Notes: generated from the sequence alone by a model not told the origin. A stretch of DNA of 64,000 nt from Bacteroidia bacterium (GCA_018058135.1 JAGPCK010000009.1:2843-66842), one strand, 5' to 3'; positions 11,342-26,056 are shown, counted from the first letter of the stretch. Numbers and translations: made by a program.

Positions 11342-11356
11342 TACACCTTGTTTTTA

Positions 11357-11595
11357 GCTCAGCGAAGCTAATCTCCCAAAACACAACGTCATTGCCTGCC
11401 TGCTGTGCGTATGCCAGTGCTCGGCAGGTAGGCGATCCCGATGGCTATCGGGAGAAGCAGTCCCCAAATGTGAGCACCATCCTTCCAATCAGGAGATCGC
11501 CACGTCATGAGTACATGACTCGCGATGGCGGTATATTTTTAATTCCATCCTCTAAATCCAACGTCATTGCGAGCTCAGCGAAGCTAATCTCCCAA
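11357..11595. repeat. short direct repeats (B-A ... A-B arrangement) bracketing a GC-richer, stem-rich segment of about 165 nt
   Basis: B = GCTCAGCGAAGCTAATCTCCCAA at 11357-11379 and 11573-11595. A = AACGTCATTGC at 11385-11395 and 11560-11570. The interior holds several perfect stems (TCCCGAT/ATCGGGA, GTCATG/CATGAC, GGCGATC/GATCGCC). Confidence 0.85.
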
Positions 11596-11799
11596 TAGGA
11601 GCACAATTTAAACTTGCACAATTACCAAAAACTTACTAATTTGCCTTTGAAAACCATTTACCTATGCAACCTAACCTGTACTTTTTCCCTATTACTTTCA
11701 GGCGCCTCGAAGGCCCCCCGCTTTTAAACAAATTACACTCCGGTTTACATTTTTTTAAAATGCAGCAGTATGGCACATCTTTACCCCAAAAACGGGTGG

Positions 11800-11824
11800 A
11801 TATGTGCCATAATGTGGCACATAT
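11800..11824. promoter_or_regulatory. perfect 10-bp inverted repeat (operator-like) upstream of the PNP-domain gene
   Basis: ATATGTGCCA-TAATG-TGGCACATAT is centred about 46 nt upstream of ATG 11858. A third TGGCACAT half-site lies at 11771-11778. Confidence 0.5.
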
Positions 11825-11857
11825 ATACTAGTTGGGCGTAACTTAAAACAGATCAGC

Positions 11858-13093
11858 ATGATTGAGATGTCACAAGAAAAGATTGAGTACTTTAAGCATA
11901 GCATAAGTGTGCTTCTTGTAACTGCTACTGATACAGAAGCAGCAGAATCAATCAATAATTTGAAACCGCTTCCAAATGAATCTGCAATCATTCAAATGTT
12001 CAGTGGAAGTCAAACTTATTATATAGGTACGCTAGGAATCTATGGAGTTGTTCTTGTGCAATCGGAAATGGGTTCTATTGGCCGAAATTCATCATTGCTG
12101 ACAACTTTACGAGCTATTGAAATATGGGAACCTAAGGCAATCATAATGGTTGGAGTTGCATTTGGTATTGACTCAAAAAAGCAACAAATAGGTGACGTTA
12201 TTGTTTCTAGTCACATAATTCCATATGAGAATTCAAGAATTGGCAAAGAGATTGTTTTTAGATCGGAACTTCCCCCTTCAAGCACAATTTTATTAAATAG
12301 AATTCGACAGATTAGAGATTGGAAGTTTCCAGTTAGTCATAACCAATTTGCAAAGCTGTATGTTGGACCAATACTGAGTGGAGAGAAATTAATTGATAAT
12401 ATTTCTTTTCGAAATGACTTAATCAGAGCGTTTCCTAATGCGATTGGTGGTGAAATGGAAAGTGTAGGTGTTTATGGGGCGGCTAACGAAAAGAAAATTG
12501 ACTGGTTAATAATAAAAAGTATTTGTGACTTTGCGGATGGTGAAAAAGGCAAATTCAAAAAGGAATTTCAATCTATTGCAATTAAGTCGGCAATAAGTTT
12601 TACCGAAAGGGTTTTGAATATTCGATCAGGGTTTGGTGAATTAGGCTTTAAACCTCTAAAAGAATCATCATCAACTGACCCTACTATAACATATAAAGAT
12701 AGGCTAAAAGACTTAATGGCATTGTTTGATGCCATCGCTACACAGCCAAAGGAGAAGGATGGAAATATATTTAAGGTTGCTGCTCGTCAAATAGTTCAGA
12801 CAGAAGTAGAGAGCAAATACGATTCTAATGTTTCAAGACTTCAGATGCTGATACCGAAAAATGTATTAGAATCCTTTGAAATGAGAATTGAGAGATGTTG
12901 GACAATGTATAATAAAGTCTTAGTCGCTGACAGGGAATATTTACCTGACGATATAGATGATTCTTCTTACGCACTACAAAAGTGCATATGCAGAGAACTT
13001 CAAAGACTTTTATTTGTTAATGGAGACATTCCTGACGGACTTATGCAACAATATTGGGATAAGTATAAATGTGAAACAAATAATCCAACGTAG
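11858..13093 (+). CDS. PNP/MTA-SAH-nucleosidase-fold (PNP_UDP_1-like) protein with an unassigned C-terminal domain of about 140 aa; candidate nucleotide-depleting immune effector
   Basis: SVLLVTATDTE, SEMGSIG, AIIMVGVAFG, GGEMESVGVYGAA (nt 12446-12484) and CDFADGEK follow the order of motifs in phosphorylase-family nucleosidases. Residues about 270-411 have no motif I recognise. Confidence 0.7.
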   Translation: MIEMSQEKIEYFKHSISVLLVTATDTEAAESINNLKPLPNESAIIQMFSGSQTYYIGTLGIYGVVLVQSEMGSIGRNSSLLTTLRAIEIWEPKAIIMVGVAFGIDSKKQQIGDVIVSSHIIPYENSRIGKEIVFRSELPPSSTILLNRIRQIRDWKFPVSHNQFAKLYVGPILSGEKLIDNISFRNDLIRAFPNAIGGEMESVGVYGAANEKKIDWLIIKSICDFADGEKGKFKKEFQSIAIKSAISFTERVLNIRSGFGELGFKPLKESSSTDPTITYKDRLKDLMALFDAIATQPKEKDGNIFKVAARQIVQTEVESKYDSNVSRLQMLIPKNVLESFEMRIERCWTMYNKVLVADREYLPDDIDDSSYALQKCICRELQRLLFVNGDIPDGLMQQYWDKYKCETNNPT

Positions 13094-13095
13094 CT

Positions 13096-13230
13096 GCGCC
13101 TAACAGCACATTTGCAATAGGCGGGGTTTCGTGCTCCGCAGACAGCTTTGTGGTAGCCGAAAGTTCAGTCCTCCGAATGAACATTTGTGCTGAAAATCCC
13201 GCCCATCGCAAATGTGCAAAACGTTATGCG
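13096..13230. repeat. attC-like / MITE-like inverted-repeat element between gene units
   Basis: The arm GCACATTTGCAATAGGCGGGG (13106-13126) pairs with CCCGCCCATCGCAAATGTGC (13198-13217). The outer GCCTAAC (13098-13104) pairs with GTTATGC (13223-13229). Confidence 0.85.
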
Positions 13231-13257
13231 TCAGCTTAAAGAACAACAATATTGACA

Positions 13258-14667
13258 ATGAAAATGAAAGTATTTATATCATATTCTGAAAGAGACAGAG
13301 AGTTTGCCTTGCTATTGAAAGAAAGACTTTCAAGCGAAAATAACATCAATATATTCTTTGATGAACACTCCTTAGAAATGGGTGGAAACATTGAACGAAT
13401 AATGATGAGAAAACTTGAGGAGTTTGATTACTATTTAATTGTAATGTCAAAATATTCTGTCAAATCTAAATATCTAATGATAGAGTTAGACAGAGTAATA
13501 TTTAGGGAAATTAAGAGTGAAAAGCAAACCATTATTCCAATTGCAATTGATGAATATGCATTGGACTTCCCTGTCATAAGAGAATTTTCTAGTAGGCAAT
13601 TAATTGATTTCTCTAAAAGTTTTGAAAACGGCTATAAAAACTTGATAAAACGCTTAAATCAAGACCAACAAAAAAAAATAGCCATTAAAGAATTCAACCC
13701 AGAAGAAACGAAGAAAATAAATGACAACTTTCTTAAGGAAATAAAAGAAGAGTTTAAAAAAGGTAGTTTATGTCTATTTTGTGGTGCTGGTGTTTCAATT
13801 AAGGCAGGAATACCGAATTGGAGTTTCCTTCTTAAAGGCTTGCTTCAAAATTTAGTGGACAAACAGCTTGGAGACTTTTCTATAGACCCTAAAAAACAAA
13901 GACAATTAGCAGAATTTTATTATGATGAGTTTGGTGTTTCGTCTTTAATTGTTGGTCAATATTTAAAAAATGGATTAGGAGAATCTTTTCTAGAAGATGT
14001 CAGAGATGCACTGTATCAAAATAACCCAACAGACAGTGATATCTTAAATACGATAGTCGAATTATGCCGTCCACAAAGAGAACGTAAGACTTTGAATTCA
14101 ATAATCACATTCAATTTTGACGATTTAATTGAAACCAACTTACAAAAAAACAGAATAAAGCATAGACCTATTCACAGTGAAGGACAAAGAGCCTTGAATT
14201 CTGAAATTCCAATATACCACCCTCATGGCTTCTTACCTAGAAAGCAAAAGCTTTCAGAGCAAAATGAAATCGTCTTTTCTGAAGACGCATATCACTCACA
14301 ATTTATTGAGCCGTTCAGTTGGAGCAATTTAGTCCAACTAAATCATTTAAATAATAATACTTGCTTACTTGTTGGAATTAGTTTGACTGATCCGAATTTA
14401 AGACGACTCCTTGATGTTTCGATGAGAAAGAACCCTGATAAACAATTAAGACACTACATATTTAAAAAACGTTACAGCACTGAGGAAATAAAGGAAAAAC
14501 TAGCTAAATCTGAATTGAGTGGTGATAAGAGTTTTTTTACCAACAACTTTATTTATATGACTGAACTTTTGGAGGAGCAAGACGCAAGAAAACTTGGACT
14601 AAACGTTATTTGGATAAAGGACTTTGAAGAAATAAATAATTTTCTAACACGGTTAAATGAAGAATAA
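13258..14667 (+). CDS. TIR domain - SIR2 (SIR2_2-type) domain fusion protein; candidate NAD+-consuming defence protein
   Basis: The N-terminus KVFISYSERDREFALLLKERL...VMSKYSVKSKYLMIELD is TIR_2-like. The C-terminal part has LFCGAGVSIKAGIPNW (GAG at 13783-13791), ITFNFDDL, IYHPHGF (His at 14224-14226) and LLVGISLTDPNLRRLL, the SIR2_2 motif order. ATG 13258 is preferred over TTG 13252. Confidence 0.8.
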   Translation: MKMKVFISYSERDREFALLLKERLSSENNINIFFDEHSLEMGGNIERIMMRKLEEFDYYLIVMSKYSVKSKYLMIELDRVIFREIKSEKQTIIPIAIDEYALDFPVIREFSSRQLIDFSKSFENGYKNLIKRLNQDQQKKIAIKEFNPEETKKINDNFLKEIKEEFKKGSLCLFCGAGVSIKAGIPNWSFLLKGLLQNLVDKQLGDFSIDPKKQRQLAEFYYDEFGVSSLIVGQYLKNGLGESFLEDVRDALYQNNPTDSDILNTIVELCRPQRERKTLNSIITFNFDDLIETNLQKNRIKHRPIHSEGQRALNSEIPIYHPHGFLPRKQKLSEQNEIVFSEDAYHSQFIEPFSWSNLVQLNHLNNNTCLLVGISLTDPNLRRLLDVSMRKNPDKQLRHYIFKKRYSTEEIKEKLAKSELSGDKSFFTNNFIYMTELLEEQDARKLGLNVIWIKDFEEINNFLTRLNEE

Positions 14668-14806
14668 AAGCCGAACGCATAACAGCACCTACAAGAAATT
14701 GGCGGTCCAGTGGTTACATAAAGCTTTGTGCTTCGTATCAAGTAAAGTGGTGGCAAACAGTTTAAGGCTTCGAAATCGCCAAACATTCTAGAATGATTTA
14801 ACTCCA

Positions 14807-15721
14807 ATGAAAAATCAAGATATAATTGACATCGTTGACATTAATCAAGAGTTTGATAAAATCAAGTCCCGTCTGCATTTGTTGTCTGACCGATTTCTTG
14901 CTGTGGCCATGGACTACAAACACTATGTGGATAGTTCATTTAAGGAGGACAGAATCTATGCACTTCGTGATAATGTTCAGTATAGGTTGTTCTCTGCAAA
15001 AATCCACTTAGAATTGTTGCTGCGACAACACATTTGGATCCAGGAAAGATTGGAGAAAGGATTTAATAATAATCCTAAAGTTGTAACAGACGATTACATT
15101 CCTATCAACCCCTACTTCGACATCTATCAAAAGGAAATTTCATCAATACTTGACAGTTTTGTTTATCACATTAGCTCAGTGTTTGACTATTTAAGCACTC
15201 TTACAAATTATATTGGCGGCTCAAATCGATACGACACCCTAATGTGGACACAACTCGCGAAATCAGTGAGGGACGGAAAGAACGCCTACAGTAAAAGACT
15301 GTTTGCCAGTACAATTGACAACATAGATCGGGACTTCGTTAGTAAGTTGTATGACCATCGAGCTTTTATAATTCACAGAAATGCCGATCCAAGTGGCTAT
15401 AGTGTAACTTTGTTTCTTGGACAAACTGAAAGGATTAAAGTCAATTTTCTTGCTGGCAAAAATCTTGTCAAGAATTTTAAAGAGTTAAAATCGCTAAGTA
15501 AGGAAAAGCACCCTACTGTGAAATACGTTGCCTTTTGGATGCTTAATAAATCAATTGACAAGGTGACTGATATTTTATTTGCACTTAAAAAGGAAATGGA
15601 ATTTGATCCCAAAGTAAAGACTCCATTTATGTACTATTTACATCCCGAGACAAAAAAGGCATTACCAGTTTCATCGATATACTGGCATGAAGATCTATAC
15701 TTAAAAGAGAATGGTGAATAG
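14807..15721 (+). CDS. hypothetical protein with an RX4H motif (possible HEPN-like RNase)
   Basis: 304 aa, helix-rich by composition. There is a single RAFIIH motif (Arg at 15359-15361, His at 15374-15376) in the context YDHRAFIIHRN. There is no other recognisable domain, so the call is tentative. Confidence 0.3.
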   Translation: MKNQDIIDIVDINQEFDKIKSRLHLLSDRFLAVAMDYKHYVDSSFKEDRIYALRDNVQYRLFSAKIHLELLLRQHIWIQERLEKGFNNNPKVVTDDYIPINPYFDIYQKEISSILDSFVYHISSVFDYLSTLTNYIGGSNRYDTLMWTQLAKSVRDGKNAYSKRLFASTIDNIDRDFVSKLYDHRAFIIHRNADPSGYSVTLFLGQTERIKVNFLAGKNLVKNFKELKSLSKEKHPTVKYVAFWMLNKSIDKVTDILFALKKEMEFDPKVKTPFMYYLHPETKKALPVSSIYWHEDLYLKENGE

Positions 15722-15731: not shown

Positions 15732-15965
15732 CATCTAAGCGTAGGTTGCGCCTACGTTTACTCTTTTATGTAGCTTGCAGCTACAAACGCACACGGGTGG
15801 GTTAAATGGCATAAAATTATAGACTACCAAACTTTGTTTATAAGCCGTAACCCCCGCTCACCTCACACTGCAACCAAGTATTTTTCTACTTGCTTTTTCA
15901 GCTTTTTATCATCAGTTTTACATGGCAAATAGTGGATGATATTTTTCACACTCTGACATTGTGCG
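15732..15965 (+). repeat. about 235-bp direct repeat, copy A (its 3' third is an R1 intergenic element)
   Basis: Near-identical to 17102-17330 at a constant offset of 1370 bp over most of its length. It begins with the hairpins AAGCGTAGG-TTGCG-CCTACGTTT and TGTAGC-TTGCA-GCTACA. Confidence 0.9.
15737..15767 (+). terminator. terminator-like hairpin just after the stop of the 14807-15721 gene
   Basis: A 9-bp stem (AAGCGTAGG / CCTACGTTT, one mismatch) is followed by the T-rich ACTCTTTTA. The same structure, with a perfect stem, occurs at 17107-17137 in repeat copy B. Confidence 0.4.
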
Positions 15966-15986
15966 TCATATTAAAACAGAAAATAA

Positions 15987-17036
15987 ATGAAACTGATTAT
16001 TCTCTTAACGTTATCAATTTTATCAGCTTCTTGTAACTCACAAGGAAAGAGACTGAACACTAATAAAAAAAGTGATTCAGATAAAGTAGAAATTGAATCT
16101 CAAATTGGAGAATATGTTACAAGTGCATTTGAAGATTCGAAAGGTAATTTATGGTTTGGAACAAATGGAAATGGAATTGCAAGGTATGATGGTGAAAAAT
16201 TAAAGTATTTTACAACAAAGGATGGGTTACCATCTGATAGAGTTACTGCAATAAAAGAGGATTCAAATGGTATCTTTTGGTTAAATACGGGTGAGGGTTT
16301 AACCAAATATGATGGGAAGAATTTCACCAATTTTTTAGTAGGAACCAACTCCGGCAGCAATATGATTGCTAATTCACTTATTGATAGCAAGAACGTTTTT
16401 TGGGTTGGCACCTGGAATGGTGTCTATAAATTTGATGGACGAACGTTTCATCCATTTTCAGTTCCTTACCCAAAAGTAGATACCAAAATAAATGAAGATA
16501 CCAGGTATTGGATAATGGGTATCAGTGAAGATGCCGTGGGCAATATCTGGTTTCTAAGAGACGGCTATGGCGTTTGTAAGTATGATGGAAAGTCGTTTAC
16601 TCATTTTCTGAAAAAAGACGGGCTGCACTCAAATAATGTTACCCAAATAGAATTTGATAAAGATGGAAATGTTTGGATTGGAACGAGAGTGGCTGAAAGA
16701 GATGATCCTGACCCCAAAAAGCGATTTGGAAAGGGTGGAGTTAATAAAATGACAGGGAATGAGATTATTTCATTTCCGGAAATAGCAGGATTTAATGATG
16801 GTGATGTGTATCAAATCTACAAAGACAAATCTGATAATATATGGATAGGTACAGTAAAAAATGGTGTATATAGATATGATGGAAAAGGCTTTAAACACTA
16901 CGAAGTTCCAGTTTCAATTATGGGTATGCTGGAAGACCAAAAAGGAAATTTATGGTTATGTGGAGCAGGTGGATTATATAGAATTAATCAGAATGGCGAA
17001 GTTATAAACGTAACTACAAAAGGGCCTTGGAAATAA
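15987..17036 (+). CDS. lipoprotein with two-component-regulator-propeller (Reg_prop-like) beta-propeller repeats
   Basis: Signal plus Cys (LSILSASC). Recurrent modules read G..W.GT..G(I/V).(R/K)(Y/F)DG..F..F (IARYDG, LTKYDG, VYKFDG, VCKYDG, VYRYDG). Confidence 0.7.
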   Translation: MKLIILLTLSILSASCNSQGKRLNTNKKSDSDKVEIESQIGEYVTSAFEDSKGNLWFGTNGNGIARYDGEKLKYFTTKDGLPSDRVTAIKEDSNGIFWLNTGEGLTKYDGKNFTNFLVGTNSGSNMIANSLIDSKNVFWVGTWNGVYKFDGRTFHPFSVPYPKVDTKINEDTRYWIMGISEDAVGNIWFLRDGYGVCKYDGKSFTHFLKKDGLHSNNVTQIEFDKDGNVWIGTRVAERDDPDPKKRFGKGGVNKMTGNEIISFPEIAGFNDGDVYQIYKDKSDNIWIGTVKNGVYRYDGKGFKHYEVPVSIMGMLEDQKGNLWLCGAGGLYRINQNGEVINVTTKGPWK

Positions 17037-17101
17037 AAAATACGAACGCACAACACTGGTTTGGCAAAAAAGCGGGTTCCGTGTTTATATGAAGTTTTGC
17101 T

Positions 17102-17330
17102 CATCTAAGCGTAGGTTGCGCCTACGCTTACTCTTTTATGTAGCTTGCAGCTACAAACACACATGGCTGGGTTAAATTGCATAAAATTATAGACTACCAA
17201 ACTTTGATTATAAGCTGTAACTCACGCTAACTTAACTCATAAACTAAGGTTTTCTACTTGCTTTTACAGCTTTTTATCACCAGTTTTACATGGCAAAGTG
17301 TGGAGGAGTTTTTCACACTTTGCAGTTACT
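17102..17330 (+). repeat. about 235-bp direct repeat, copy B (its 3' third is an R1 element)
   Basis: See copy A. The two copies flank the 15987-17036 gene. Confidence 0.9.
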
Positions 17331-17369
17331 GGCAATTATTAAAAAAAGACTTTAATCTTAACTAAAAAT

Positions 17370-19909: not shown

Positions 19910-20863
19910 ATGAAGCAATATGTGTTTTACATTTTAATAGTGATTTTTACTTCTTGCCGTAATGGAGATTCTCACCATATTTCACCGGTTGCCAAAAGCT
20001 ATATTGATGAAGTTATTACTCTATTGCAGAATAATTCAATAAACAAAAACAAGATTAATTGGGAAGATTTTAGAAATGATGTTTATAGACACGCAAAAGG
20101 GTCGAGAACTATAGATCAGACTTATACTTCAATTACTTATGCAATAGACAAATTAGAAGACCATCATAGTTATTTTGCTGCAAATATAGTTTCACAAGAT
20201 ACAAGCGATTTAAAACCACTACCTATTTTGCAGGATGAAATTGTACCCGAAAACATTGGTTATATTAGAATTGGTTTTTGTATGGGTGACGAACAACAGA
20301 AAAATAACTATATCAATTCTATAGTAGACAAAATAGCAAAGCAAGATAAAATAAGACTAAAAGGCTGGATCGTAGATTTGAGGGGAAATTTTGGAGGAGA
20401 TATGGTACCCATGTTAGTCGCAATAGGTCCAATCTTGGGAGAAGGAATATTAGGTTATTTTTTCTATCCCGACAGTTCATTCTATACTTGGAACTATAAA
20501 AATGGATATCTATATGATGAAAATGGTATTTGGTGGGAGCAATCCACTAATTCCTATCATTTAAAATCCCCTAATCCATATGTTGCAATTCTAACAGATA
20601 ATGTTACAGCAAGTTCCGGAGAAGCAGTAGCGATAGCCTTTAAGGGGCGTAATAAAACCAAATCATTTGGAATACCAACATTTGGAGTTTCAACTAGTAA
20701 TCGTTCATATACTTTATCAGATGGTTCCAGAATAAATTTAACAGTAAGTGTATTTGCGGACAGGAATAAAATAAGATATGGAAGTTCCGTATATCCTGAT
20801 GTGGTGTGTGAGGAAAAGGAAACATTGGTAAAAGCGATAAATTGGATATCAACCAAACATTAA
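19910..20863 (+). CDS. S41-family (tail-specific/C-terminal processing type) serine peptidase, lipoprotein
   Basis: DLRGNFGGDM and TASSGEAVAIAFKG blocks. Signal plus Cys (VIFTSC). Confidence 0.75.
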   Translation: MKQYVFYILIVIFTSCRNGDSHHISPVAKSYIDEVITLLQNNSINKNKINWEDFRNDVYRHAKGSRTIDQTYTSITYAIDKLEDHHSYFAANIVSQDTSDLKPLPILQDEIVPENIGYIRIGFCMGDEQQKNNYINSIVDKIAKQDKIRLKGWIVDLRGNFGGDMVPMLVAIGPILGEGILGYFFYPDSSFYTWNYKNGYLYDENGIWWEQSTNSYHLKSPNPYVAILTDNVTASSGEAVAIAFKGRNKTKSFGIPTFGVSTSNRSYTLSDGSRINLTVSVFADRNKIRYGSSVYPDVVCEEKETLVKAINWISTKH

Positions 20864-21046
20864 AAACTACCACCAGCATGGGTTTGGCTTCGTTGATTTT
20901 CATTTGGCAAATGTAGGGCTTTGATGCAAGGCTGAATATTTGTACTTTCTATTAACTTTAGTTTTAAATTTGAGCCTAAGTACATTTTAACACCCACCTT
21001 CGACAAGCACAACCACGTTATGGCTTATTTTAAAAGACACGACCTA

Positions 21047-22174
21047 ATGAAAAAAACCGTTATATCAATATGGCTGATTCTGTTCTCTTTTTATTCAAAC
21101 AAGACCTTTGCACAGCAAACAAAAATTGATGTCACAATTCATTCAAGAGTTGATACAACGAACTTTGACATAAAGGAAGTAGCAATGCTTTGGATAAGTT
21201 ATTTGAACTCCAAACCCGACAGTTTATACGACAATCCCTATTGGAATAGTGCTGAAAAATTTAAGTTCAAACGTTTTGACTTTTCTATGGAATATTTGTA
21301 TCAGTTTCCATCAAGCCAACTGCTTAGGTATTACAAGCCGACTATACTATCAATTGAAAAGGAAGGTGATAATTACGGTATTCGGACTATTTTTTCAGCA
21401 GACGGACTTCCAGAAGAATACAGAAAGTCAAATCCTTGGTGTATCACAAAACTATATGCTGTTAAAGAAAATGGTAAGTGGAAACTTAAAAATTCACTTC
21501 CGATAATTGCAGAAAATTGGGAAAGAAAAACGTTAGGTAAAATAACTTTCATTTATCCACAGCATCATAAATTTAATGATGAGCTTGCTACAAAAGCAAG
21601 TCTGTTCTGTGATGAACTATCAAAAGAATATAAATTCTCCGAATGGCAGCCGTTTGATTTTTACATTACTGGTAGTGGAGATGAGTTAGGTAAACTCCTC
21701 AATTTCGACTTCTTTTATGCTGGCTATACAACAGGAATTGGAATGAATGACAACCGAATATTATTAAGTGGTATGGGTTCAGAATACTATCCACACGAAT
21801 TTATCCACTTAGTAGTTCCAAAACAAAACAGGCACTGGATTATTGAAGAAGGCTTTGCAACCTGGAAAGGTGGACAAGGTGGGAAAATATTTGAAGAAAG
21901 TGCTAAACTATTGGCTATTGAATTGGCTAAAAATGACACCGTAACCTTCTCTGACGTTCTAACCAAAAAATGGGGTTGGCAATATGCTGCATTCTATACA
22001 ACAGGAGCAGTATTTTGTAAAGCTGCCTATAAAAAAGGAGGTGTAGTTTTGGTAAAGAAACTATTGGAAATACCACCTGACGATGAGAAATTAATTGAAG
22101 CTATCTGTAATATATTTGAGATTAATGAAGTAGATATAGATAGTTTTTGGAAAAAAGAGGTATCAAAATTTTAA
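21047..22174 (+). CDS. secreted hypothetical protein with an HExxH motif (possible metallopeptidase)
   Basis: Signal peptide MKKTVISIWLILFSFYSNKTFAQQ. HEFIH at nt 21794-21808. No other recognised motif. An alternative start is ATG 21020. Confidence 0.4.
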   Translation: MKKTVISIWLILFSFYSNKTFAQQTKIDVTIHSRVDTTNFDIKEVAMLWISYLNSKPDSLYDNPYWNSAEKFKFKRFDFSMEYLYQFPSSQLLRYYKPTILSIEKEGDNYGIRTIFSADGLPEEYRKSNPWCITKLYAVKENGKWKLKNSLPIIAENWERKTLGKITFIYPQHHKFNDELATKASLFCDELSKEYKFSEWQPFDFYITGSGDELGKLLNFDFFYAGYTTGIGMNDNRILLSGMGSEYYPHEFIHLVVPKQNRHWIIEEGFATWKGGQGGKIFEESAKLLAIELAKNDTVTFSDVLTKKWGWQYAAFYTTGAVFCKAAYKKGGVVLVKKLLEIPPDDEKLIEAICNIFEINEVDIDSFWKKEVSKF

Positions 22175-22316
22175 ACTAACTAGTATTTGACAGAATAAAA
22201 ACGAGCCATATCGGGTGTTTGGCCAAAAAGCAGGCTGAATGCTTAATGTGCTTTATGCATCGTATCAAGTTCAGTGCTCCGTAATCCGCCACTGCGCAAA
22301 GCTCTCATTGGTCCAC

Positions 22317-22372
22317 GTTTATTCAGGTTGTTCATGAGATTTCTTCGCTTTGTTGTAAAGCGGTTGTAAAAA
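22317..22372. repeat. R3 intergenic repeat, copy 2
   Basis: GTTTATTCAGGTTGTTCATGAGATTTCTTCGCTTTGTTGTAAAGCGGTTGTAAAAA. Confidence 0.85.
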
Positions 22373-22417
22373 ATGTTTATTTGAAATAGAATTTTAAACC
22401 AATAGAATCTAAAATCC

Positions 22418-24040
22418 ATGATAAAAAAAATAGTACTATTAAACCTTTCCCTGATTTTTCTTCTTGCAACAAGTCATGCACAATTTAACTCAAATTCTAT
22501 CGATTGGAACATACCTGAATTAGAATTTAATCCTGAGGATATGGGGAGTGTGTATGGGCCGGGATACTCTCTTGTTGACTTAAACGGAGATGGATTCCCC
22601 GACATGGTTGATTCAAGAGATAATAATTCATCTACCGGCAGTGTTTGGCAAAACAGTTCCCAAAGGTATTGGAAAGTGTATTGGAATAACGGAACGTCAA
22701 TGAGTGCTACTGCTGTAAATTGGAATATACCAGATTTAGAATTTCAACCAGAGGATATGGGAGGCGTGTATGGAGAAGGTTACACGCTTGTTGACTTAAA
22801 TGGAGACGGATTCCCTGATTTGGTTGATTCAAGAGATAATAACTCATCAACCGGCAGTGTTTGGCAAAATGGTCTCCAAAGGTATTGGAAAGTGTATTGG
22901 AATAACGGAACGTCAATGAGTGCAACAGCTGTAAATTGGAACATACCGGATTTAGAATTTCAACCTGAGGATATGGGCGGTGTGAACGGGCCCGGATACG
23001 CACTTGTTGACCTGAACGGAGATGGATTACCTGATCTGGTTGATTCGAGAGATAATAACTCATCAACCGGCAGTGTTTGGCAAAATGGTCTCCAAAGGTA
23101 TTGGAAGGTGTATTGGAATAACGGAACTTCAATAAGTGCAACAGCTGTAGTTTGGAACATACCCGACTTAGAATTTCAACCTGAGGATATGGGAGGCGTG
23201 TATGGAGAAGGTCACACACTTATTGACTTGAACGGAGATGGATTCCCCGACTTGGTTGATACAAGAGATAATAATTCATCAATTGGCAGTGTTTGGCAAA
23301 ATGGTCTCCAAAGGTATTGGAAAGTGTATTGGAATAATGGAACTTCAATCACTGCAACAGCCATAAATTGGAACATACCTGAATTAGAATTTAACCCTGA
23401 AGATATGGGAAGCGTAAATGGGCCCGGATATGCGCTTTTTGACCTGAATGGAGATGGACATCCTGATCTGGTTGATTCAAGAGATAACAATTCATCAACA
23501 GGTAGTGTTTGGCAAAATAGCTCCCAAAGATATTGGAAAGTATATTGGAATAGCGGAACAGCTATAAGTTTAACAGCCATAAATTGGAACATCCCTGAAA
23601 TAGAATTTAACCCCGAGGATATGAGCGTTGTGTATGAACCGGGTTACACACTTGTTGACTTAAACGGAGACGGATTTCCCGATCTGGTTGATTCGAGAGA
23701 TAATAATTCATCAACCGGCAGTGTTTGGCAAAATAGTTCTCAAAGGTATTGGAAAGTGTATTGGAACTTATCTACTACAAGAGTGGAAGAATATGAGTTT
23801 TTTAATGTGAACGTTACGGTTTATCCTAACCCTACTAGCGGTGAGCTAAGTATTGATTTAGGTTCAAGCTACAATAATGTTTCAGTAATTATAAGTAATG
23901 CATTAGGGCAGGTAGTTCAAAGTCAAAATTTTAGTAACTCCAACGTATTGCAACTCAACATACCGGGAGAAGCCGGTGTGTACTTTATTGAAGTAAATTC
24001 CGGTGACAAAAAAGCACGATTAAAGGTGATGAAAAAGTAA
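22418..24040 (+). CDS. secreted protein with six 72-aa FG-GAP/VCBS-like repeats and a T9SS C-terminal sorting domain
   Basis: Signal peptide. Six copies of WNIP(E/D)LEF(N/Q)PEDMG.V.G.GY.LVDLNGDGFPDLVDSRDNNSSTGSVWQN..QRYWKVYWNNGTS. The C-terminus VTVYPNPTSGELSIDL...GVYFIEVNSGDKKARLKVMKK is a Por/T9SS CTD pattern. Confidence 0.8.
   Translation: MIKKIVLLNLSLIFLLATSHAQFNSNSIDWNIPELEFNPEDMGSVYGPGYSLVDLNGDGFPDMVDSRDNNSSTGSVWQNSSQRYWKVYWNNGTSMSATAVNWNIPDLEFQPEDMGGVYGEGYTLVDLNGDGFPDLVDSRDNNSSTGSVWQNGLQRYWKVYWNNGTSMSATAVNWNIPDLEFQPEDMGGVNGPGYALVDLNGDGLPDLVDSRDNNSSTGSVWQNGLQRYWKVYWNNGTSISATAVVWNIPDLEFQPEDMGGVYGEGHTLIDLNGDGFPDLVDTRDNNSSIGSVWQNGLQRYWKVYWNNGTSITATAINWNIPELEFNPEDMGSVNGPGYALFDLNGDGHPDLVDSRDNNSSTGSVWQNSSQRYWKVYWNSGTAISLTAINWNIPEIEFNPEDMSVVYEPGYTLVDLNGDGFPDLVDSRDNNSSTGSVWQNSSQRYWKVYWNLSTTRVEEYEFFNVNVTVYPNPTSGELSIDLGSSYNNVSVIISNALGQVVQSQNFSNSNVLQLNIPGEAGVYFIEVNSGDKKARLKVMKK
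22505..23800 (+). repeat. 6 x 216-bp in-frame tandem repeat inside the CDS
   Basis: The TGG of the WNIP motif recurs at 22505, 22721, 22937, 23153, 23369 and 23585, an exact 216-nt period. Confidence 0.95.
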
Positions 24041-24162: not shown

Positions 24163-24190
24163 TTATTGATGTTTAAATAAAAAAATAAAT

Positions 24191-24826
24191 ATGAGATGCA
24201 AAATCATTTTTATTATAATTGTGATAATGTCGATTTCTGGCAATAATTTATTTGGACAAAATCGAATAAATTCAAGACTATTCAGGTTAAAACCACCCCT
24301 CTATAATAGTAAATCAAAAGTTGAGCATATTGATTTATCTATATTCAATATTACAGTCAATAAACCGATTGATAACAGGAGCAAATTTTACGGTGAGATT
24401 GTATACAAGGATAAAAAAGTTCAACAACTGGATGAATTTTATCAATCCCCGACAATGATTGAGATTCAGAAGAAAATGGATTCTGATTTGAGAGCATTTG
24501 GGATGAACAATGCTTTAGATTCAACAAAACGCAAAGTGGAGATTAACACAATTGTAGAAGTCTTTTATCCCGATGTTCGTGGGTTTATTTGGATGAAGTC
24601 ATTTGCTAAAGTCAGATTAAGTATAACAGCAAAATCAAAAGACATTGAATTGATTAACAAAACCTATGAATCTTTCTATATCACAGATGGGAGAGACAAG
24701 GAATTTGAAGGTAGCATGATGATGACAATTGAACAAGGTGCAAATGTGACCATTGGTATTGCGTTAAGAAAAGCACTGGATGAATTTTATGCTGATTTAA
24801 AAGAGAGAATAAAAAACAACCGCTAA
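24191..24826 (+). CDS. hypothetical secreted/lipoprotein
   Basis: N-terminal hydrophobic signal. No recognisable domain. Confidence 0.5.
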   Translation: MRCKIIFIIIVIMSISGNNLFGQNRINSRLFRLKPPLYNSKSKVEHIDLSIFNITVNKPIDNRSKFYGEIVYKDKKVQQLDEFYQSPTMIEIQKKMDSDLRAFGMNNALDSTKRKVEINTIVEVFYPDVRGFIWMKSFAKVRLSITAKSKDIELINKTYESFYITDGRDKEFEGSMMMTIEQGANVTIGIALRKALDEFYADLKERIKNNR

Positions 24827-24856
24827 CACCCGGCTATCCTTAGTCTGTACTAAAGA

Positions 24857-24939
24857 TTTTTTACACTTGCTTTTTCAGCTTTTTATCGCCAGTTTTACAT
24901 TGCAAAGAGTGGAGGAGTTTTTTCACACTCTGGCGTTAC
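24857..24939 (+). repeat. R1 intergenic element (copy e)
   Basis: TTTTTTACACTTGCTTTTTCAGCTTTTTATCGCCAGTTTTACATTGCAAAGAGTGGAGGAGTTTTTTCACACTCTGGCGTTAC. Confidence 0.9.
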
Positions 24940-24954
24940 AAAATAATAAAAATC

Positions 24955-25785
24955 ATGAGATTAACATTTTGTTTAATTCTTACGTTCAATTTTTTTGCAT
25001 TGTTTGGACAAAGAACAGGGACTTTTTACTATTCTCCGGTTGGTGAATTGTGTAATAGTGATATAGCGAAGAAAAAGTGTGTGATTAATGCTTTAGATGA
25101 TAAGAATTTCAAAGAAGAAATTTATAACAGGTTTGAAAAAGAATGGAGCACGCCTAACTATTACAACACTTATGAATTCCTAACTGATTCAGTAATAATA
25201 ATCAAAACGTATGTAAATAATAGTTTACCATCCATTACCAAACGCATTTACAAAAAAATCAATGATAGTCTTTTCGCATTTACTGATTATTATAAGGATA
25301 CTGTTATTCGACAAATGGGTGAAGCTTCAAATATTTTACCGTTGATATTAAATGGGCAGGTAATAAACTATTTCAAAAATGGAAATATAAGTTGTAAAGC
25401 AAGATACAGAAATAATAGATTGATTAGTAATCAAAGTTGGAGTGAAAGCGGGGAAAAAGATGTTGAAAATGTTTTTGATTTTTATCAAGTTGAAGTGGAA
25501 CCTCAATTTAATGATGGTAAGTTAAGCGAATTTATTGGTAAGCAAATAAGTTATCCCAAAGAGGCAAGGAAGAACAACATAGCCGGACGAGTTGTAATTC
25601 AATTTATTATTATGGAAGATGGTTCGGTTGAACGTTTGAAAATCTTAAAAAGTATGCATCCTGCATTAGATGAAGAGGCCATTAGAGTTGTAAAATTGAC
25701 AAATAAGAAATGGTTGCCAGGAATTATAGATGCAATACCAGTTCGTGTGACTTTTGTTTTGCCAATTTTATTTAGCTTGGATTAA
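24955..25785 (+). CDS. TonB C-terminal-domain protein
   Basis: The C-terminal VEPQFNDGKLSEFIGKQISYPKEARKNNIAGRVVIQFIIMEDGSV...LDEEAIRVVKL..KWLPG matches the TonB_C pattern. The N-terminal part is unassigned. Confidence 0.75.
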   Translation: MRLTFCLILTFNFFALFGQRTGTFYYSPVGELCNSDIAKKKCVINALDDKNFKEEIYNRFEKEWSTPNYYNTYEFLTDSVIIIKTYVNNSLPSITKRIYKKINDSLFAFTDYYKDTVIRQMGEASNILPLILNGQVINYFKNGNISCKARYRNNRLISNQSWSESGEKDVENVFDFYQVEVEPQFNDGKLSEFIGKQISYPKEARKNNIAGRVVIQFIIMEDGSVERLKILKSMHPALDEEAIRVVKLTNKKWLPGIIDAIPVRVTFVLPILFSLD

Positions 25786-25850
25786 ATAATAACAATACAC
25801 AACACAGAGTATCAGTCATGCCTCTGCTTTGCTTACTCTGTTCATATGGA

Positions 25851-25868
25851 TTCTTTACACTTGCTTCT
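25851..25868 (+). repeat. truncated R1 element (5' end only) at the right edge of the accessory block
   Basis: TTCTTTACACTTGCTTCT matches the first about 15 nt of R1, and similarity is then lost. Confidence 0.6.
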
Positions 25869-26056
25869 AATACTCTCATTCCCAAAGCCCAGAATACTTT
25901 CCTTATCACACAGCGGATATTTCAGTTAACTGAATCAGGTTAACTATGCATTCAGTTCTGTCAACTACAAAGCGAAGCAAAATTGCCCGTAAATGTTACT
26001 TGTTTTTTCCTTTAACAAGCGCGGTAATCACTAAAAGCTTTCTTACATTTGTTTTG

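What the first reader, a model, noticed from the sequence alone, without database searches (positions are those of the whole stretch)
11342..25900. Uniformly oriented array of about 11 gene units separated by related structured repeats with attC-like ends: possible integron-type cassette array with no integrase in the window
Seen in sequence:
- From 11.8 to 25.8 kb all 14 genes are on the + strand.
- They form units of one or two genes: PNP; TIR-SIR2; RX4H; Reg_prop lipoprotein; tail tube plus LysE; VOC plus DUF1801; S41 peptidase; HExxH protein; FG-GAP/T9SS protein; lipoprotein; TonB-C protein.
- Spacers of 110-360 bp separate the units and share mosaic repeat modules.
- Right after several stop codons there is a GCAYAAC-type motif: GCCTAAC 13098, GCATAAC 14677, GCACAAC 17048, GCATAAC 19552, CGCTAAC 24821. 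ACCTAAC also occurs at 11669 and 24079.
- Shortly before the next start codon there is a GTTA-type motif: GTTGGGC 11831, GTTATGC 13223, GTTACTG 17325, GTTAGCG 18670, GTTGTGT 19855, GTTATGG 21017, GTTAAGG 24156, GTTACAA 24935.
- GTTATGC is the exact reverse complement of GCATAAC.
- Two spacers (13096-13230 and 24079-24162) are bounded by clear inverted repeats.
- In spacer 17037-17369, ACTGGT..AAAAAAGC (17055-17073) is complementary to GCTTTTT..ACCAGT (17269-17285).
- The block looks AT-richer than its flanks by eye (not computed). Its cargo is of a kind often seen in accessory cassettes: VOC, DUF1801, LysE, many unknowns and defence-like genes.

Established knowledge:
- Integron attC sites run from R'' (RYYYAAC) to R' (GTTRRRY) and sit downstream of promoterless cassette ORFs in one orientation.
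- Arrays without a nearby integrase (CALINs) exist.
- Chromosomal integron cassettes are known to carry phage-defence genes.

Inference and caveat: this may be such an array, or a different cassette-shuffling system. Several spacers are longer than typical attC sites and do not fold into one clean hairpin by eye.
Basis: partly seen in the sequence, partly recalled or inferred. Interest (0 to 1): 0.75.

Follow-up and report, generated by a model that had tools for sequence, protein, structure and literature searches.

The report
Integron-like defence-gene cassette array in Bacteroidia
A 14-kb block of same-direction accessory and anti-phage genes, inserted in a conserved operon of an uncultured Bacteroidia bacterium, swaps genes between close relatives at shared repeat modules ending in GTT; it behaves like an integron array but lacks integron-type sites and a nearby recombinase.

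Summary
Window 11.7-26.0 kb holds 14 co-oriented genes in about 11 units (GC 0.35, right flank 0.41), separated by mosaic repeats found nowhere else in the window.

A distant relative has the two flanking genes 184 nt apart, so the block is an insertion. Relatives 93-98% identical in the flanks carry different cassettes at five or more positions. Unalignable sequence always starts within a few bases of a GTTR at the end of a repeat module.

I found a roughly 95-nt structured entry module (LE, 11738-11834, ending AGTTG). Nine of 19 stem pairs change compensatorily. It marks array starts at three chromosomal loci, followed directly by defence systems (PNP plus TIR-SIR2, PDC-M60, DRT3, AAA ATPase).

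It is not a canonical integron:
- The dominant spacer (Q hairpin plus D2, about 120 nt) is conserved in sequence and has no consensus fold.
- Strict RYYYAAC is not enriched.
- Only 13098-13229 is attC-like.
- No recombinase lies in 64 kb or beside the other arrays.

Best reading (0.5): a new integron-like cassette system with an unidentified trans-acting recombinase. Main rival (0.27): homologous recombination between terminator-promoter modules. Closest known: integrons and CALINs, and Bacteroidales rAID-1.

The parts
11342..11737 (+). Conserved non-coding stretch after the methyltransferase gene. It contains REP-like repeats (GCTCAGCGAAGCTAATCTCCCAA x2, AACGTCATTGC x2). It is flank, not part of the array.
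   Evidence: About 95% identical in relatives L055 and L053. Homology with the more distant L059 ends at about 11750, where the LE module starts.
11738..11834 (+). LE, the array entry module. It has a T-run (ATTTTTTTAAAA), a B1-B2 hairpin, a B3 box (TGGCACAT), and ends in ACTAGTTG. The variable cassettes start at 11835.
   Evidence: Consensus fold -21.8 kcal/mol, with 9 of 19 pairs changed compensatorily across loci. Covariance model R1 finds it only at array starts at three loci, including L013, which was not in the training set (75 bits). The junction with relatives is exactly after GTTG. DNA fold z-score -2.7.
11858..13093 (+). Cassette 1 ORF: PNP_UDP_1 phosphorylase-family protein (defence effector-like).
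   Evidence: Pfam 2e-19. PADLOC PDC-M60C 3.5e-18 and PN-superfamily effector. Absent from relatives L055 and L053, which carry other cassettes here.
13098..13229 (+). sp2-type hairpin element, the only attC-like site. GCCTAAC ... 24-bp imperfect stem ... AAAAC GTTATGC.
   Evidence: Inverted repeat I2. Fold z-scores -4.9 and -6.0. The only intergenic hit of the rule-based attC scan. A second member with a different stem sequence and the same GTTATGCG end is at L055 8287-8415.
13252..14667 (+). Cassette 2 ORF: TIR-SIR2 protein (ThsA-like).
   Evidence: Pfam TIR_2 6e-20 and SIR2_2 4e-20. PADLOC ThsA 6e-23.
14668..14806 (+). P-type 3' tail (CGAAC GCATAAC AGCAC...). It looks like a degenerate 5' half of an sp2-type element.
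   Evidence: An 85%-identical copy lies after an unrelated ORF in L014 at 1542-1639. Sequences compared.
14807..15721 (+). Cassette 3 ORF, 304 aa, no family hit.
   Evidence: Replaced together with cassettes 1-2 in the relatives.
15732..15975 (+). D4 (two terminator-like hairpins) plus D2 copy 1. The site equivalent to GTT is ATTG at 15958.
   Evidence: Terminator-like hairpin at 15736-15760. nhmmer score 79.6 bits.
15987..17036 (+). Cassette ORF: Reg_prop beta-propeller protein.
   Evidence: Pfam 4e-30. Replaced by 166-aa and 247-aa ORFs in L053, and broken into small ORFs in L052.
17037..17343 (+). P tail (GCACAAC at 17048), then D4, then D2 copy 2 (GTTAC at 17325).
   Evidence: Identity to L027 and L055 is 85-93% up to the GTT and 100% after it.
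17370..18502 (+). Two-gene cassette: gp19-type tail tube protein (17370-17837) and LysE translocator (17876-18502).
   Evidence: Pfam 8.5e-41 and 1.2e-23. Conserved in L027 and L055.
18503..18688 (+). P tail, Q hairpin (18568-18595) and D2 copy 3 (GTTAG at 18670). The cassette swap with L027 starts here.
18753..19552 (+). Two-gene cassette: VOC/glyoxalase (18753-19145) and DUF1801 (19127-19552).
   Evidence: Pfam. Replaced in L027 by an unrelated VOC (24% identity) and a 162-aa ORF.
19553..19872 (+). P' tail, D5 (19653-19719) and D2 copy 4 (GTTG at 19855).
   Evidence: Identity to L027 is only 76-88% here, against 97% in spacers between shared cassettes, and rises to 97% a few bases past the GTT.
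19910..24040 (+). Three cassettes without D2 between them: S41 peptidase (19910-20863), a 384-aa ORF (21020-22174) and an FG-GAP/T9SS protein (22418-24040). Spacer 20864-21019 begins with a P-like stretch. Spacer 22175-22417 holds a P-like stretch and a D5 copy.
   Evidence: Pfam. Repeats D5 and D6. 97-99.5% identical to L027, spacers included.
24191..24826 (+). Cassette ORF, 211 aa, no family hit.
24827..24952 (+). Minimal inter-cassette element: Q hairpin (24833-24859) plus D2 copy 5 (GTTAC at 24935). The stop codon sits inside CGCTAAC.
   Evidence: The swap with L062 begins at 24932.
24955..25785 (+). Last cassette ORF: TonB_C protein.
   Evidence: Pfam 7e-18. Replaced by an unrelated 243-aa ORF in L062-L064.
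25786..25999 (+). Degenerate terminal element: ACACAACA (25797), Q' (25824-25853), the first 13 nt of D2 (25854-25866), and ...ATGTTAC (25995-25999). The conserved flank begins after it.
   Evidence: Identity to L062 is 18-81% here and 99% or more from about 25996. Truncated D2.
26057..27553 (+). Right flank: B12-binding radical SAM gene. The probable true start is 26057, not the 25946 of the longest ORF.
   Evidence: Homologs are 497-500 aa and cover 93% of the 535-aa ORF. In L060 this gene lies 184 nt after the methyltransferase gene.

Best explanation
This is an integron-like gene-cassette array of a type not described before. It sits in the chromosome of an uncultured Bacteroidia lineage. 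It works like an integron array but is not a member of the integron family.

Anatomy (shown):
- A structured entry module (LE) ends in AGTTR.
- It is followed by n cassettes. Each cassette has a short 5' leader, 1-3 ORFs and a 3' tail that often starts YAACA.
- After most cassettes comes a junction element. This is a terminator-like hairpin (Q or D4, sometimes with D5) plus the roughly 90-nt sequence-conserved D2 module, which ends in GACGTTR.
- Three junctions in the window (after the S41, 384-aa and FG-GAP genes) lack D2.
- A second, hairpin-type junction element (sp2 type, ending GTTATGC) also occurs.

Proposed mechanism (inferred):
- Cassettes are inserted and exchanged by site-specific recombination at or a few bases before the GTTR of LE, D2 or sp2 sites.
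- The recombinase is encoded elsewhere in the genome and has not been identified.
- Each insertion leaves the incoming cassette's own junction element in front of the previous first cassette.
- This would explain why every gene unit is preceded by LE or D2, and why the last element next to the flank is decayed.
- Q and D4 probably terminate the upstream gene.
- D2 probably carries a promoter and a 5' leader. The invariant TTG lies 20 nt before the invariant CAGTTTTA, as in the Bacteroidetes -33/-7 layout. If so, cassettes are expressed individually, unlike most integron cassettes.
- Homologous recombination and gene conversion between the repeated modules also reshuffle the array.

Biological role (partly shown): a store of accessory genes, with anti-phage systems in the entry-proximal positions.
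For: 1. It is an insertion. In L060 (rSAM gene 83% identical) the methyltransferase and B12-rSAM genes are 184 nt apart. In the window they are 14.6 kb apart.

2. The repeats are clustered and oriented.
- All D2 copies in the window lie within a 10-kb stretch of the array, on the gene strand, 3-65 nt before the next start codon, and none lies elsewhere in the 64 kb.
- The same holds in the arrays L018/L065, L027, L033 and L034.
- One diverged partial copy (L010) lies 180 nt before its ORF.

3. Cassettes turn over at one locus among relatives 93-98% identical in shared genes.
- First block: PNP/TIR-SIR2/304 aa against 300+91 aa/PDC-M60ABC/CsbD.
- Reg_prop against 166-aa and 247-aa ORFs.
- VOC+DUF1801 against another VOC plus a 162-aa ORF.
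- TonB_C against a 243-aa ORF.

4. Junctions sit at GTTR sites.
- In every comparison, unalignable sequence begins within a few bases of the GTTR (or the position it occupies in D2) at the end of LE or D2.
- The next junction element aligns only at reduced identity: 76-88%, or 57-81% at the terminal element, against 97% in control spacers.
- In those two comparisons identity rises to 97-99% at or within about 10-15 nt after that element's own GTTR.

5. Three unrelated module types (LE, D2, sp2) share one end architecture. Each has a hairpin 3' arm, then 5-9 nt, then GTTR.

6. LE is conserved in structure, with 9 of 19 compensatory pairs.
- It marks array starts at three different loci.
- Locus 2 gives an independent junction comparison, L013 against L018.

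7. The genes right after LE are defence systems in four arrays.

8. A relative with an 88%-identical E1 gene (L066) lacks both LE and D2 at locus 2.
Against: - No recombinase of any family lies in the 64-kb window, nor within about 4-10 kb of the arrays in L033 and L065. The key enzyme is therefore hypothetical.
- Breakpoints are not base-exact at G|TT.
  - In two swaps one partner lacks GTT (L027 ACTTTT, L062 ACCTAA).
  - In L027 the last 13 nt before the GTT go with the downstream cassette.
  - Chimeric D2 copies and a truncated-D2+Q+D2 tandem in L065 point to homologous recombination or gene conversion.
- Shared modules necessarily end where homology ends. A junction at a module end is therefore weaker evidence than it looks.
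- The last cassette is not followed by an intact D2. This also fits D2 belonging to the downstream gene as its promoter.
- No cassette was seen at two different positions or loci, and no circular cassette was seen.
- All same-species MAGs have identical content.
- The promoter assignment rests on a partial consensus match only.
Confidence: 0.5

Rival explanations
1. A modular accessory and defence island reshuffled only by homologous recombination.
- Q and D4 are terminators, and LE and D2 are promoter-plus-leader modules of a co-regulated gene set.
- Their sequence similarity gives imported DNA from related strains the homology needed to replace one gene unit by another.
- No dedicated recombinase or specific crossover site exists.
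For: - D2 is conserved in sequence, not structure.
- D2 always sits just upstream of an ORF. The last cassette lacks an intact D2.
- Q and D4 hairpins are followed by T-runs.
- Breakpoints vary by several bases, D2 copies are chimeric, and there are signs of gene conversion between copies.
- In L053 against L055, sequence changes begin inside the CsbD gene. This fits a homologous crossover with a diverged donor.
- No recombinase lies near any array.
Against: - It does not explain how unrelated low-GC genes came to be flanked by the same 120-270-nt modules at about 80-95% identity.
- It does not explain why three unrelated module types all end in GTTR a few bases after a hairpin arm.
- It does not explain why LE keeps a hairpin through compensatory changes.
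- It does not explain why whole arrays appear as insertions at three unrelated chromosomal loci.
- Members of an ordinary regulon share short operator motifs, not long near-identical spacers.
Confidence: 0.27
2. A canonical integron cassette array (CALIN).
- The spacers are attC sites recombined by an IntI-type integrase encoded elsewhere in the genome.
- LE is its attI site.
For: - The cassettes are co-oriented and low in GC.
- GTTR occurs at site ends, and the entry site ends in GTTG or GTTA, like the GTTA cleavage site of Vibrio attI quoted in 10.1101/2024.07.02.601686.
- One good attC-like hairpin is present, with GCCTAAC and GTTATGC ends. A second one with a different stem sequence is in L055.
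- Integrons have been reported in Bacteroidota.
- Defence cargo matches that of sedentary chromosomal integrons.
Against: - Ten or more of the 12 spacers are not attC-like. They have no R''/R' pairing beyond AAC/GTT, no consensus hairpin and no extrahelical bases.
- RYYYAAC is not enriched.
- attC sites are conserved in structure and not sequence. D2 is the opposite.
- No intI lies next to LE at any of three loci, although attI normally abuts intI.
- Spacers reach 250-357 nt.
Confidence: 0.08
3. A generic family of REP- or MITE-like intergenic repeats that happens to be dense in this region, with no link to gene organisation or cassette exchange.
For: - Single D2 copies exist outside long arrays in another MAG (L010).
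- The Q hairpin is an IS target (L022).
- True REP-like repeats lie just upstream, at 11342-11700.
Against: - There are no copies in the other 49 kb of the window.
- Orientation with respect to genes is strict.
- The variation seen is swapping of whole gene units, not presence or absence of the repeat.
- I saw no obvious terminal inverted repeats or target duplications, though I did not search for them systematically.
- Apart from two repeat-containing loci on one contig of another Bacteroidia MAG, exact-core scans of the genome collection found only chance matches. The metagenome scan found copies only in a few related sample sets. The viral collection gave none.
Confidence: 0.05

Closest known systems
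Sedentary chromosomal integrons and CALINs (IntI / attI / attC systems)
   Same: - A one-directional array of small, AT-rich accessory cassettes.
- A fixed entry site ending in GTTR, with the newest or most variable cassettes next to it.
- A junction element after each cassette whose conserved part ends at GTTR.
- Rapid cassette turnover between close relatives.
- Cargo rich in phage-defence systems, as reported for Vibrio integrons (10.1101/2024.07.02.601686).
- One junction element (13098-13229) looks like an attC hairpin.
   Different: - No intI lies next to the entry site at any of three loci.
- The dominant junction element is conserved in sequence and has no conserved hairpin, R''-R' pairing or extrahelical bases.
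- It appears to bring a terminator and a promoter, so cassettes are probably not promoterless.
- Spacers reach 357 nt and are mosaics of several modules.
- The entry module itself is a covarying hairpin.
rAID-1, recombinase-associated acquired interbacterial defence clusters of gut Bacteroidales (Ross et al. 2019, bioRxiv 10.1101/471110; PMC12247911)
   Same: - Same bacterial class.
- Arrays of co-oriented, low-GC short genes.
- Conserved repetitive intergenic sequences that the authors call 'reminiscent of integrons'.
- A defensive role.
- The mechanism of array growth is still unknown (PMC12247911).
   Different: - rAID-1 is defined by a XerD-like tyrosine recombinase gene at the 5' end of the array. 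Here the 5' neighbour is a methyltransferase (locus 1) or a 2-oxoacid dehydrogenase E1 gene (locus 2).
- rAID cargo is T6SS orphan immunity genes. Here it is anti-phage systems and mixed accessory genes.
- I could not compare the intergenic motifs because no rAID sequence was available to the tools.
Modules that use a recombinase encoded elsewhere (IMEX elements at dif; pdif modules of Acinetobacter plasmids). This comparison is from my own knowledge and was not tested.
   Same: Gene modules bounded by short recombination sites and moved by an enzyme not encoded next to them, so arrays build up without a local integrase.
   Different: - By eye I saw no convincing dif-like site (two 11-bp arms around a 6-bp spacer).
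- The LE inverted boxes have variable spacing of 5, 9 and 13 nt.
- pdif sites alternate in orientation, whereas all sites here point one way.

Membership tests
Integron (complete) | An intI tyrosine recombinase gene next to the cassette array and attI | tested here: not met
   Pfam scans covered the non-overlapping ORFs of 150 aa or more in the 64-kb window and found no Phage_integrase or other recombinase domain. None was found beside LE in L033, L013 or L065. The rest of the genome could not be searched.
Integron / CALIN | attC sites: imperfect hairpins R''-L''...L'-R', conserved in structure and not in sequence, 57-141 nt long | tested here: not met
   Nineteen Q+D2 copies have no consensus fold (-0.05 kcal/mol). 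Covariation is weak. Fold z-scores are -1.2 to -2.2. The rule-based scan finds one intergenic site, 13098-13229. A CALIN needs at least two attC sites.
Integron / CALIN | A hit to the IntegronFinder attC covariance model | not testable with these tools
   The attC model is not in Rfam and could not be loaded. Rfam found nothing in the region even at E up to 5. Only my proxy scan was run.
Integron / CALIN | An R'' box (RYYYAAC) after the ORF and an R' box (GTTRRRY) at the 3' end of each site | tested here: inconclusive
   The GTT at the R' position is present in most module ends; four of 19 aligned D2 copies read ATT and one TTT. Strict RYYYAAC is not enriched (1 of 13 against 3 of 39), but YAACA is (7 of 13 against 4 of 39). 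R''/R' complementarity beyond AAC/GTT is absent in most spacers on manual comparison of the sequences.
Integron / CALIN | Co-oriented cassettes whose presence, absence and order vary between strains, with junctions at the recombination sites | tested here: met
   At least four cassette-level differences at one locus, all bounded by LE or D2 ends to within a few bases of the GTTR. A second locus behaves the same way.
rAID-1 (Bacteroidales) | A XerD-like tyrosine recombinase gene at the 5' end, at least 44% identical to BF9343_RS08045 | tested here: not met
   The 5' neighbours are a methyltransferase and an E1 dehydrogenase. No recombinase domain is in the window.
rAID-1 (Bacteroidales) | Two or more co-oriented downstream genes with GC of 41% or less, and conserved intergenic motifs | tested here: met
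   Fourteen co-oriented genes, GC 0.353, repeated intergenic modules. Whether the motifs are the same as in rAID-1 could not be tested because no rAID sequence was available.
REP / MITE-type dispersed repeats | Many copies dispersed through intergenic regions, independent of gene organisation. MITEs also have terminal inverted repeats and target-site duplications. | tested here: not met
   No copies in the 49 kb outside the array. All copies share the orientation of the downstream gene. I saw no obvious terminal inverted repeats or duplications but did not search for them systematically. A whole-genome census was not possible.

The most novel reading that the evidence does not exclude
A Bacteroidia lineage carries a previously unrecognised gene-capture system that parallels integrons.
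- A structured entry site (LE) and sequence-conserved junction sites (D2) that also act as terminator-promoter units let a recombinase encoded elsewhere, of unknown family, stack independently expressed cassettes.
- Anti-phage systems sit in the first positions.
- Arrays occur at several chromosomal loci in the same genome.
- This would be a second, independently evolved solution to the integron's task. It may be related to the unexplained rAID arrays of gut Bacteroidales.
Probability: 0.4. Interest if true: 0.85.

Novelty: new variant of a known kind. Interest (0 to 1): 0.72.

Why it matters
- Integrons are the textbook gene-capture platform, yet complete integrons are very rare in Bacteroidota. 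IntegronFinder 2.0 reported only one, in Salinibacter ruber.
- How the integron-like rAID arrays of gut Bacteroidales grow is still unknown (PMC12247911).
- This locus offers a tractable comparative data set:
  - an entry module and junction modules that can each be recognised by a model;
  - three insertion loci;
  - several natural cassette swaps.
- If a dedicated recombinase is found, this would be a new class of cassette platform in which each cassette brings its own expression signals.
- It would also be a practical marker for finding defence systems in uncultured Bacteroidia.
- If none is found, it is a clear example of a defence island whose modular promoter and terminator repeats drive gene-unit exchange by homologous recombination.

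Tried and rejected
- **Rfam.** No hits at gathering thresholds on the whole window, nor at E up to 5 on 11.0-26.5 kb.
- **Sigma-70 promoter and terminator scan.** Counts were at shuffle level. Only the D4 hairpins stood out.
- **Exact D2-core scans.**
  - The genome collection gave one other Bacteroidia MAG plus chance hits.
  - The metagenome collection gave 22 loci, about half of them chance matches.
  - The viral contigs gave nothing for D2 or Q.
- **Recombinase hidden among the unannotated cassette proteins.** The 304-aa ORF (window) and the 300-aa ORF (L055) are unrelated to each other and have no family hit.
- **D2 as an attC-type hairpin, or long-range P-D2 pairing.** Rejected. There is no consensus fold and only weak covariation. 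Many cassettes lack P altogether.
- **LE B2-B3 boxes as a dif-like or recombinase core site.** Unlikely. The box spacing varies (5, 9 and 13 nt) and the box sequences covary between loci, which points to nucleic-acid structure rather than a fixed protein-binding sequence.
- **L022 as a cassette swap.** Rejected. It is an IS4-family insertion upstream of D2.
- **L053 against L055 as proof that D2 travels with the downstream gene.** Rejected. Divergence begins inside CsbD, so it is compatible with either model.
- **Identity steps as proof of the crossover point.** Weakened, because D4-D2 copies within and between genomes are all about 86-95% alike, a sign of concerted evolution.
- **tRNA-linked integration.** The only tRNA gene (Ser, 34855-34942) is far from the array.
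- **Shared cassettes between different loci.** None found in the loci held.
- **Apparent similarity between the D2 core CAGTTTTACAT and GGTTTACAT in the window's LE.** Not conserved in LE at the other loci, so dropped.

Full report
**1. What is in the window**

From 11858 to 25785 there are 14 ORFs, all on the + strand.
- PNP_UDP_1
- TIR+SIR2
- Reg_prop
- gp19 tail tube
- LysE
- VOC
- DUF1801
- S41 peptidase
- FG-GAP with a T9SS tail
- TonB_C

Three ORFs have no family hit. GC is 0.353 in the block, 0.412 in the right flank and 0.369 in the left flank.

The block lies between two parts of one radical-SAM cluster. On the left are an unknown gene, an rSAM-SPASM gene and a methyltransferase gene. 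On the right are a B12-rSAM gene, a methyltransferase gene, an unknown gene and two more B12-rSAM genes.

I scanned the non-overlapping ORFs of 150 aa or more in the 64 kb with Pfam. None has a recombinase or transposase domain. The only tRNA gene is far away.

**2. The repeats**

The spacers are mosaics of a few modules:

- **D2** is about 90 nt long, with five full copies and one truncated copy. It always lies on the gene strand, 3-65 nt before the next start codon.
- **Q** is a 10-bp hairpin (ATCCTTAGTC/GACTAAGGAT) followed by a T-run.
- **D4** is 152 nt and starts with two hairpins. The terminator scan picks up the first.
- **D5** is 67 nt.
- **P** is a stop-proximal tail that often begins YAACA.

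The smallest complete spacer is a stop codon, about 10 nt, Q and then D2. That totals 120-130 nt (for example 24827-24952).

None of these modules occurs elsewhere in the window. The D2 core gives 5 hits against 0.01 expected.

Spacer 13094-13251 is of a different kind. It is a long hairpin bounded by GCCTAAC and GTTATGC.

**3. Is it an attC array?**

No, by every test I could run.

- An alignment of 19 distinct Q+D2 copies has no consensus fold (-0.05 kcal/mol).
- A hand-specified structure shows only weak covariation.
- DNA fold z-scores are -1.2 to -2.2 for Q+D2, against -4.9 and -6.0 for the 13098-13229 hairpin.
- A rule-based attC scan required RYYYAAC and GTTRRRY with one deviation allowed, at least 5 of 7 complementary bases, paired ends and 50-160 nt length. 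It returns only 13098-13229 among the spacers, plus two hits inside the FG-GAP repeats. The rest of the window gives four hits.
- Strict RYYYAAC after stop codons is not enriched (1 of 13 against 3 of 39). The looser YAACA is enriched (7 of 13 against 4 of 39).
- Rfam finds nothing.

The IntegronFinder attC model itself was not available, so this part rests on proxies.

**4. Where the sequence comes from, and related arrays**

Exact-protein look-ups place the window in Bacteroidia MAGs (GCA_017996105.1, GCA_020047435.1, GCA_017986975.1) and in many short metagenome contigs. All of these have the same cassette order.

A scan of species-representative genomes with the D2 core found one other Bacteroidia MAG. 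The metagenome scan found about a dozen true loci. A D2 profile shows several same-strand copies per contig:
- three each in L027, L018 and L033;
- five in L065;
- two each in four short contigs.

Cargo in these arrays is again mixed: MORN, diacylglycerol kinase, NAGPA, RibD_C, a SIR2-like protein, an AAA ATPase, a CDP-alcohol transferase, TPR and an S9 peptidase. No recombinase lies beside them.

**5. The block is an insertion**

In a more distant relative (L060, GCA_051715425.1; rSAM gene 83% identical) the same cluster is uninterrupted. The methyltransferase gene ends 184 nt before the B12-rSAM gene.

**6. Cassette turnover at this locus**

Relatives whose flanking genes are 93-98% identical differ in whole gene units.

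- **(a) First block.** L055, L057 and L052 have [300 aa + 91 aa][PDC-M60 A/B/C][CsbD] where the window has [PNP][TIR-SIR2][304 aa]. Both then continue with Reg_prop, tube and LysE.
- **(b) After CsbD.** L053 is 100% identical to L055 over 7.3 kb. After CsbD it carries 166-aa and 247-aa ORFs instead of Reg_prop.
- **(c) The VOC unit.** L027 replaces VOC+DUF1801 by an unrelated VOC (24% identity) plus a 162-aa ORF. It also has a different gene before the tube cassette.
- **(d) The last unit.** L062-L064 replace TonB_C by a 243-aa ORF.

**7. Where the breaks fall**

Left boundary:
- Window and L055 are 95% identical through the 516-nt non-coding stretch, up to ...CACATATATACTAGTTG. They are unalignable from the next base, 11835.

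Inside the arrays, unalignable sequence starts at the end of a D2:
- ...CACACGCTGACGTTAGCG against L027 ...CACACGCTAACTTTTCC;
- ...CACACTCTGGCGTTAC against L062 ...CACACTTTGACCTAAGCG;
- L055 ...CTGACGTTG against L053 ...GTGAAGTTA.

The spacer after a swapped cassette can still be aligned, because all spacers are related. Its identity is lower:
- 76-88% before S41 in L027, against 97% in spacers between shared cassettes;
- 57-81% in the terminal element in L062.

In those two comparisons identity returns to 97-99% at or within about 10-15 nt after that spacer's own GTTR (19855 and 25995). In the third swap (window against L055) there is almost no step. D4 is 92% identical, D2 up to the G is 97%, and the 31 nt after it are 97%.

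This pattern is what an integron-type unit would give, that is, 5' leader, ORF, tail, junction element, G|TT.

Three cautions apply:
- Breaks scatter over about 13 nt.
- Two partners lack GTT at the site.
- D4-D2 copies are all 86-95% alike within and between genomes. Concerted evolution and homologous crossovers clearly occur.

**8. A structured entry module**

The last 95 nt or so before the first cassette form a module, LE. Similar sequences precede the first cassette of arrays at other chromosomal loci.

| Source | Sequence at the LE end |
|---|---|
| Window | ...ATATGTGCCATAATGTGGCACATATATACTAGTTG |
| L018 | ...ATATGCGAAGATTTATATCGCATATAAGCTAGTTA |
| L033 | ...ATATGCGAAGGTATGTTGAGCATATGAGCAAGTTA |

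- RNAalifold gives a consensus hairpin of -21.8 kcal/mol. Nine of its 19 pairs are kept through changes on both sides.
- A covariance model built from these sequences finds one more copy that was not in the training set, L013 3827-3943 (75 bits, E = 2e-11).
- It finds nothing inside arrays or elsewhere.

The three loci are:
- locus 1, between the methyltransferase and rSAM genes;
- locus 2, after a 2-oxoacid dehydrogenase E1 gene (L013, L018, L065);
- locus 3, between a bestrophin-like gene and alanine dehydrogenase (L033).

At locus 2, L013 and L018 are about 94% identical through the E1 gene and LE. They become unalignable right after AGTTG/AGTTA. A relative with an 88%-identical E1 gene has neither LE nor D2.

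JGI sample 3300056599 contains both a locus-1 array and a locus-2 array. One genome may therefore carry several.

LE, D2 and the sp2-type hairpin (a second example is L055 8287-8415) share one end layout. Each has the 3' arm of a hairpin, then 5-9 nt, then GTTR.

**9. Cargo**

The genes directly after LE are defence systems in four arrays:
- window: PNP (PDC-M60C-like, PN-superfamily effector) and TIR-SIR2 (ThsA-like, 6e-23);
- L055: PDC-M60 A, B and C (7e-66, 8e-33, 4e-17);
- L013: DRT3a and DRT3b (5e-125, 1e-227);
- L018/L065: an AAA ATPase of the HEC-04/PtuA/AriA kind (9e-32).

**10. Interpretation**

Shown:
- The block is an inserted, one-directional cassette array.
- It has defined entry and junction modules.
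- Cassettes turn over rapidly, and the changes are bounded by those modules.
- Entry-proximal cargo is phage defence.

Inferred:
- Insertion and exchange occur by site-specific recombination near GTTR, catalysed by an enzyme encoded elsewhere.
- Q and D4 act as terminators.
- D2 acts as a promoter plus leader. Its two most invariant blocks are TTG and CAGTTTTA, 20 nt apart. This resembles the Bacteroidetes -33 TTG / -7 TAnnTTTG layout, which I cite from my own knowledge. The match to the -7 consensus is only partial.

The main rival needs no special enzyme. Under it, the repeated terminator-promoter modules let homologous recombination swap gene units between strains. It explains the fuzzy breakpoints and the lack of a recombinase. 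It does not explain three things:
- how unrelated genes acquired the modules;
- why three module types share the GTTR end;
- why LE keeps a covarying hairpin.

I put the integron-like, site-specific reading at 0.50. Within that reading, homologous recombination still acts as a second process. I put homologous recombination alone at 0.27, a canonical integron or CALIN at 0.08, and generic REP/MITE repeats at 0.05. The remainder is for something not considered.

**11. Comparison with known systems**

Function and layout resemble two known kinds of system:
- sedentary chromosomal integrons that store defence cassettes (10.1101/2024.07.02.601686);
- the rAID-1 arrays of gut Bacteroidales. [quoted passage not shown] How they grow is still unknown (PMC12247911).

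Membership fails for both:
- no intI, and junction elements that are not attC-like;
- no 5' recombinase.

I found no description of the LE and D2 modules in four full-text searches. I rate it a new variant of a known kind, the cassette array or integron-like platform. It could prove to be a separate class if its recombinase is new.

Noticed in passing
window 11342-11700: REP-like repeats in the non-coding stretch after the methyltransferase gene: GCTCAGCGAAGCTAATCTCCCAA x2 and AACGTCATTGC x2, with several short GC-rich hairpins between them. Their number and order differ in relatives L055 and L059, which have the variant GTCATTGCGAGGAACGAAGCAA.
   Followed up: partly
window 8299-11341 and 26057-32270: The array splits a conserved cluster: an unknown 388-aa gene, rSAM-SPASM, a methyltransferase, then a B12-rSAM gene, an MTS methyltransferase, an unknown 316-aa gene and two more B12-rSAM genes. 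The cluster is contiguous in L060 and conserved across many Bacteroidota. Its product is unknown.
   Followed up: partly
window 25946-26056: The longest ORF of the B12-rSAM gene (535 aa) probably starts too early. Homologs are 497-500 aa, and high identity to relatives begins only at about 25996. The likely start is the ATG at 26057.
   Followed up: yes
window 22497-23876: The FG-GAP/T9SS gene contains six tandem copies of a 216-nt (72-aa) repeat, 66-86% identical to the first copy.
   Followed up: no
L022 405-1580 and L013 7410-7440: An IS4-family transposase (DUF4372 + DDE_Tnp_1) is inserted just upstream of the D2 before the tube gene in L022, apparently in the loop of a Q hairpin. L013 has what looks like a lone copy of the same IS end (GACTATTGCTGTCCGG) at the matching point of its Q hairpin. 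The Q hairpin may be a preferred IS target.
   Followed up: partly
window 19653-19719 and 22305-22371: Both copies of module D5 carry a conserved mini-ORF on the minus strand (MNNLNKHGRV / MNNLNKRGPM). It could be chance or a remnant of a gene start.
   Followed up: no
L065 17402-17660: A D2 cut off at ...GAGTTTTTTC is followed directly by CCTCT, Q and a full D2, with no ORF between them. This may be an 'empty cassette' or the scar of a deletion. It hints that the joining point may lie near TTC|ACAC, upstream of the GTT.
   Followed up: no
L033 4650-4695 (minus strand): The last cassette of the L033 array is followed by a perfect small palindrome, GACAACAGTACCTGTTGTAC (AAC...GTT), and then an ordinary terminator before the alanine dehydrogenase gene.
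   Followed up: no
window 34855-34942: A tRNA-Ser (GGA) gene on the minus strand overlaps the 5' end of the longest ORF of the deoxyhypusine synthase-like gene (33864-34928). That ORF's start is probably overcalled.
   Followed up: no
L052 18478-19527: In one relative the Reg_prop cassette is broken into five small ORFs (a pseudogene), while its flanking D4-D2 modules are intact.
   Followed up: no
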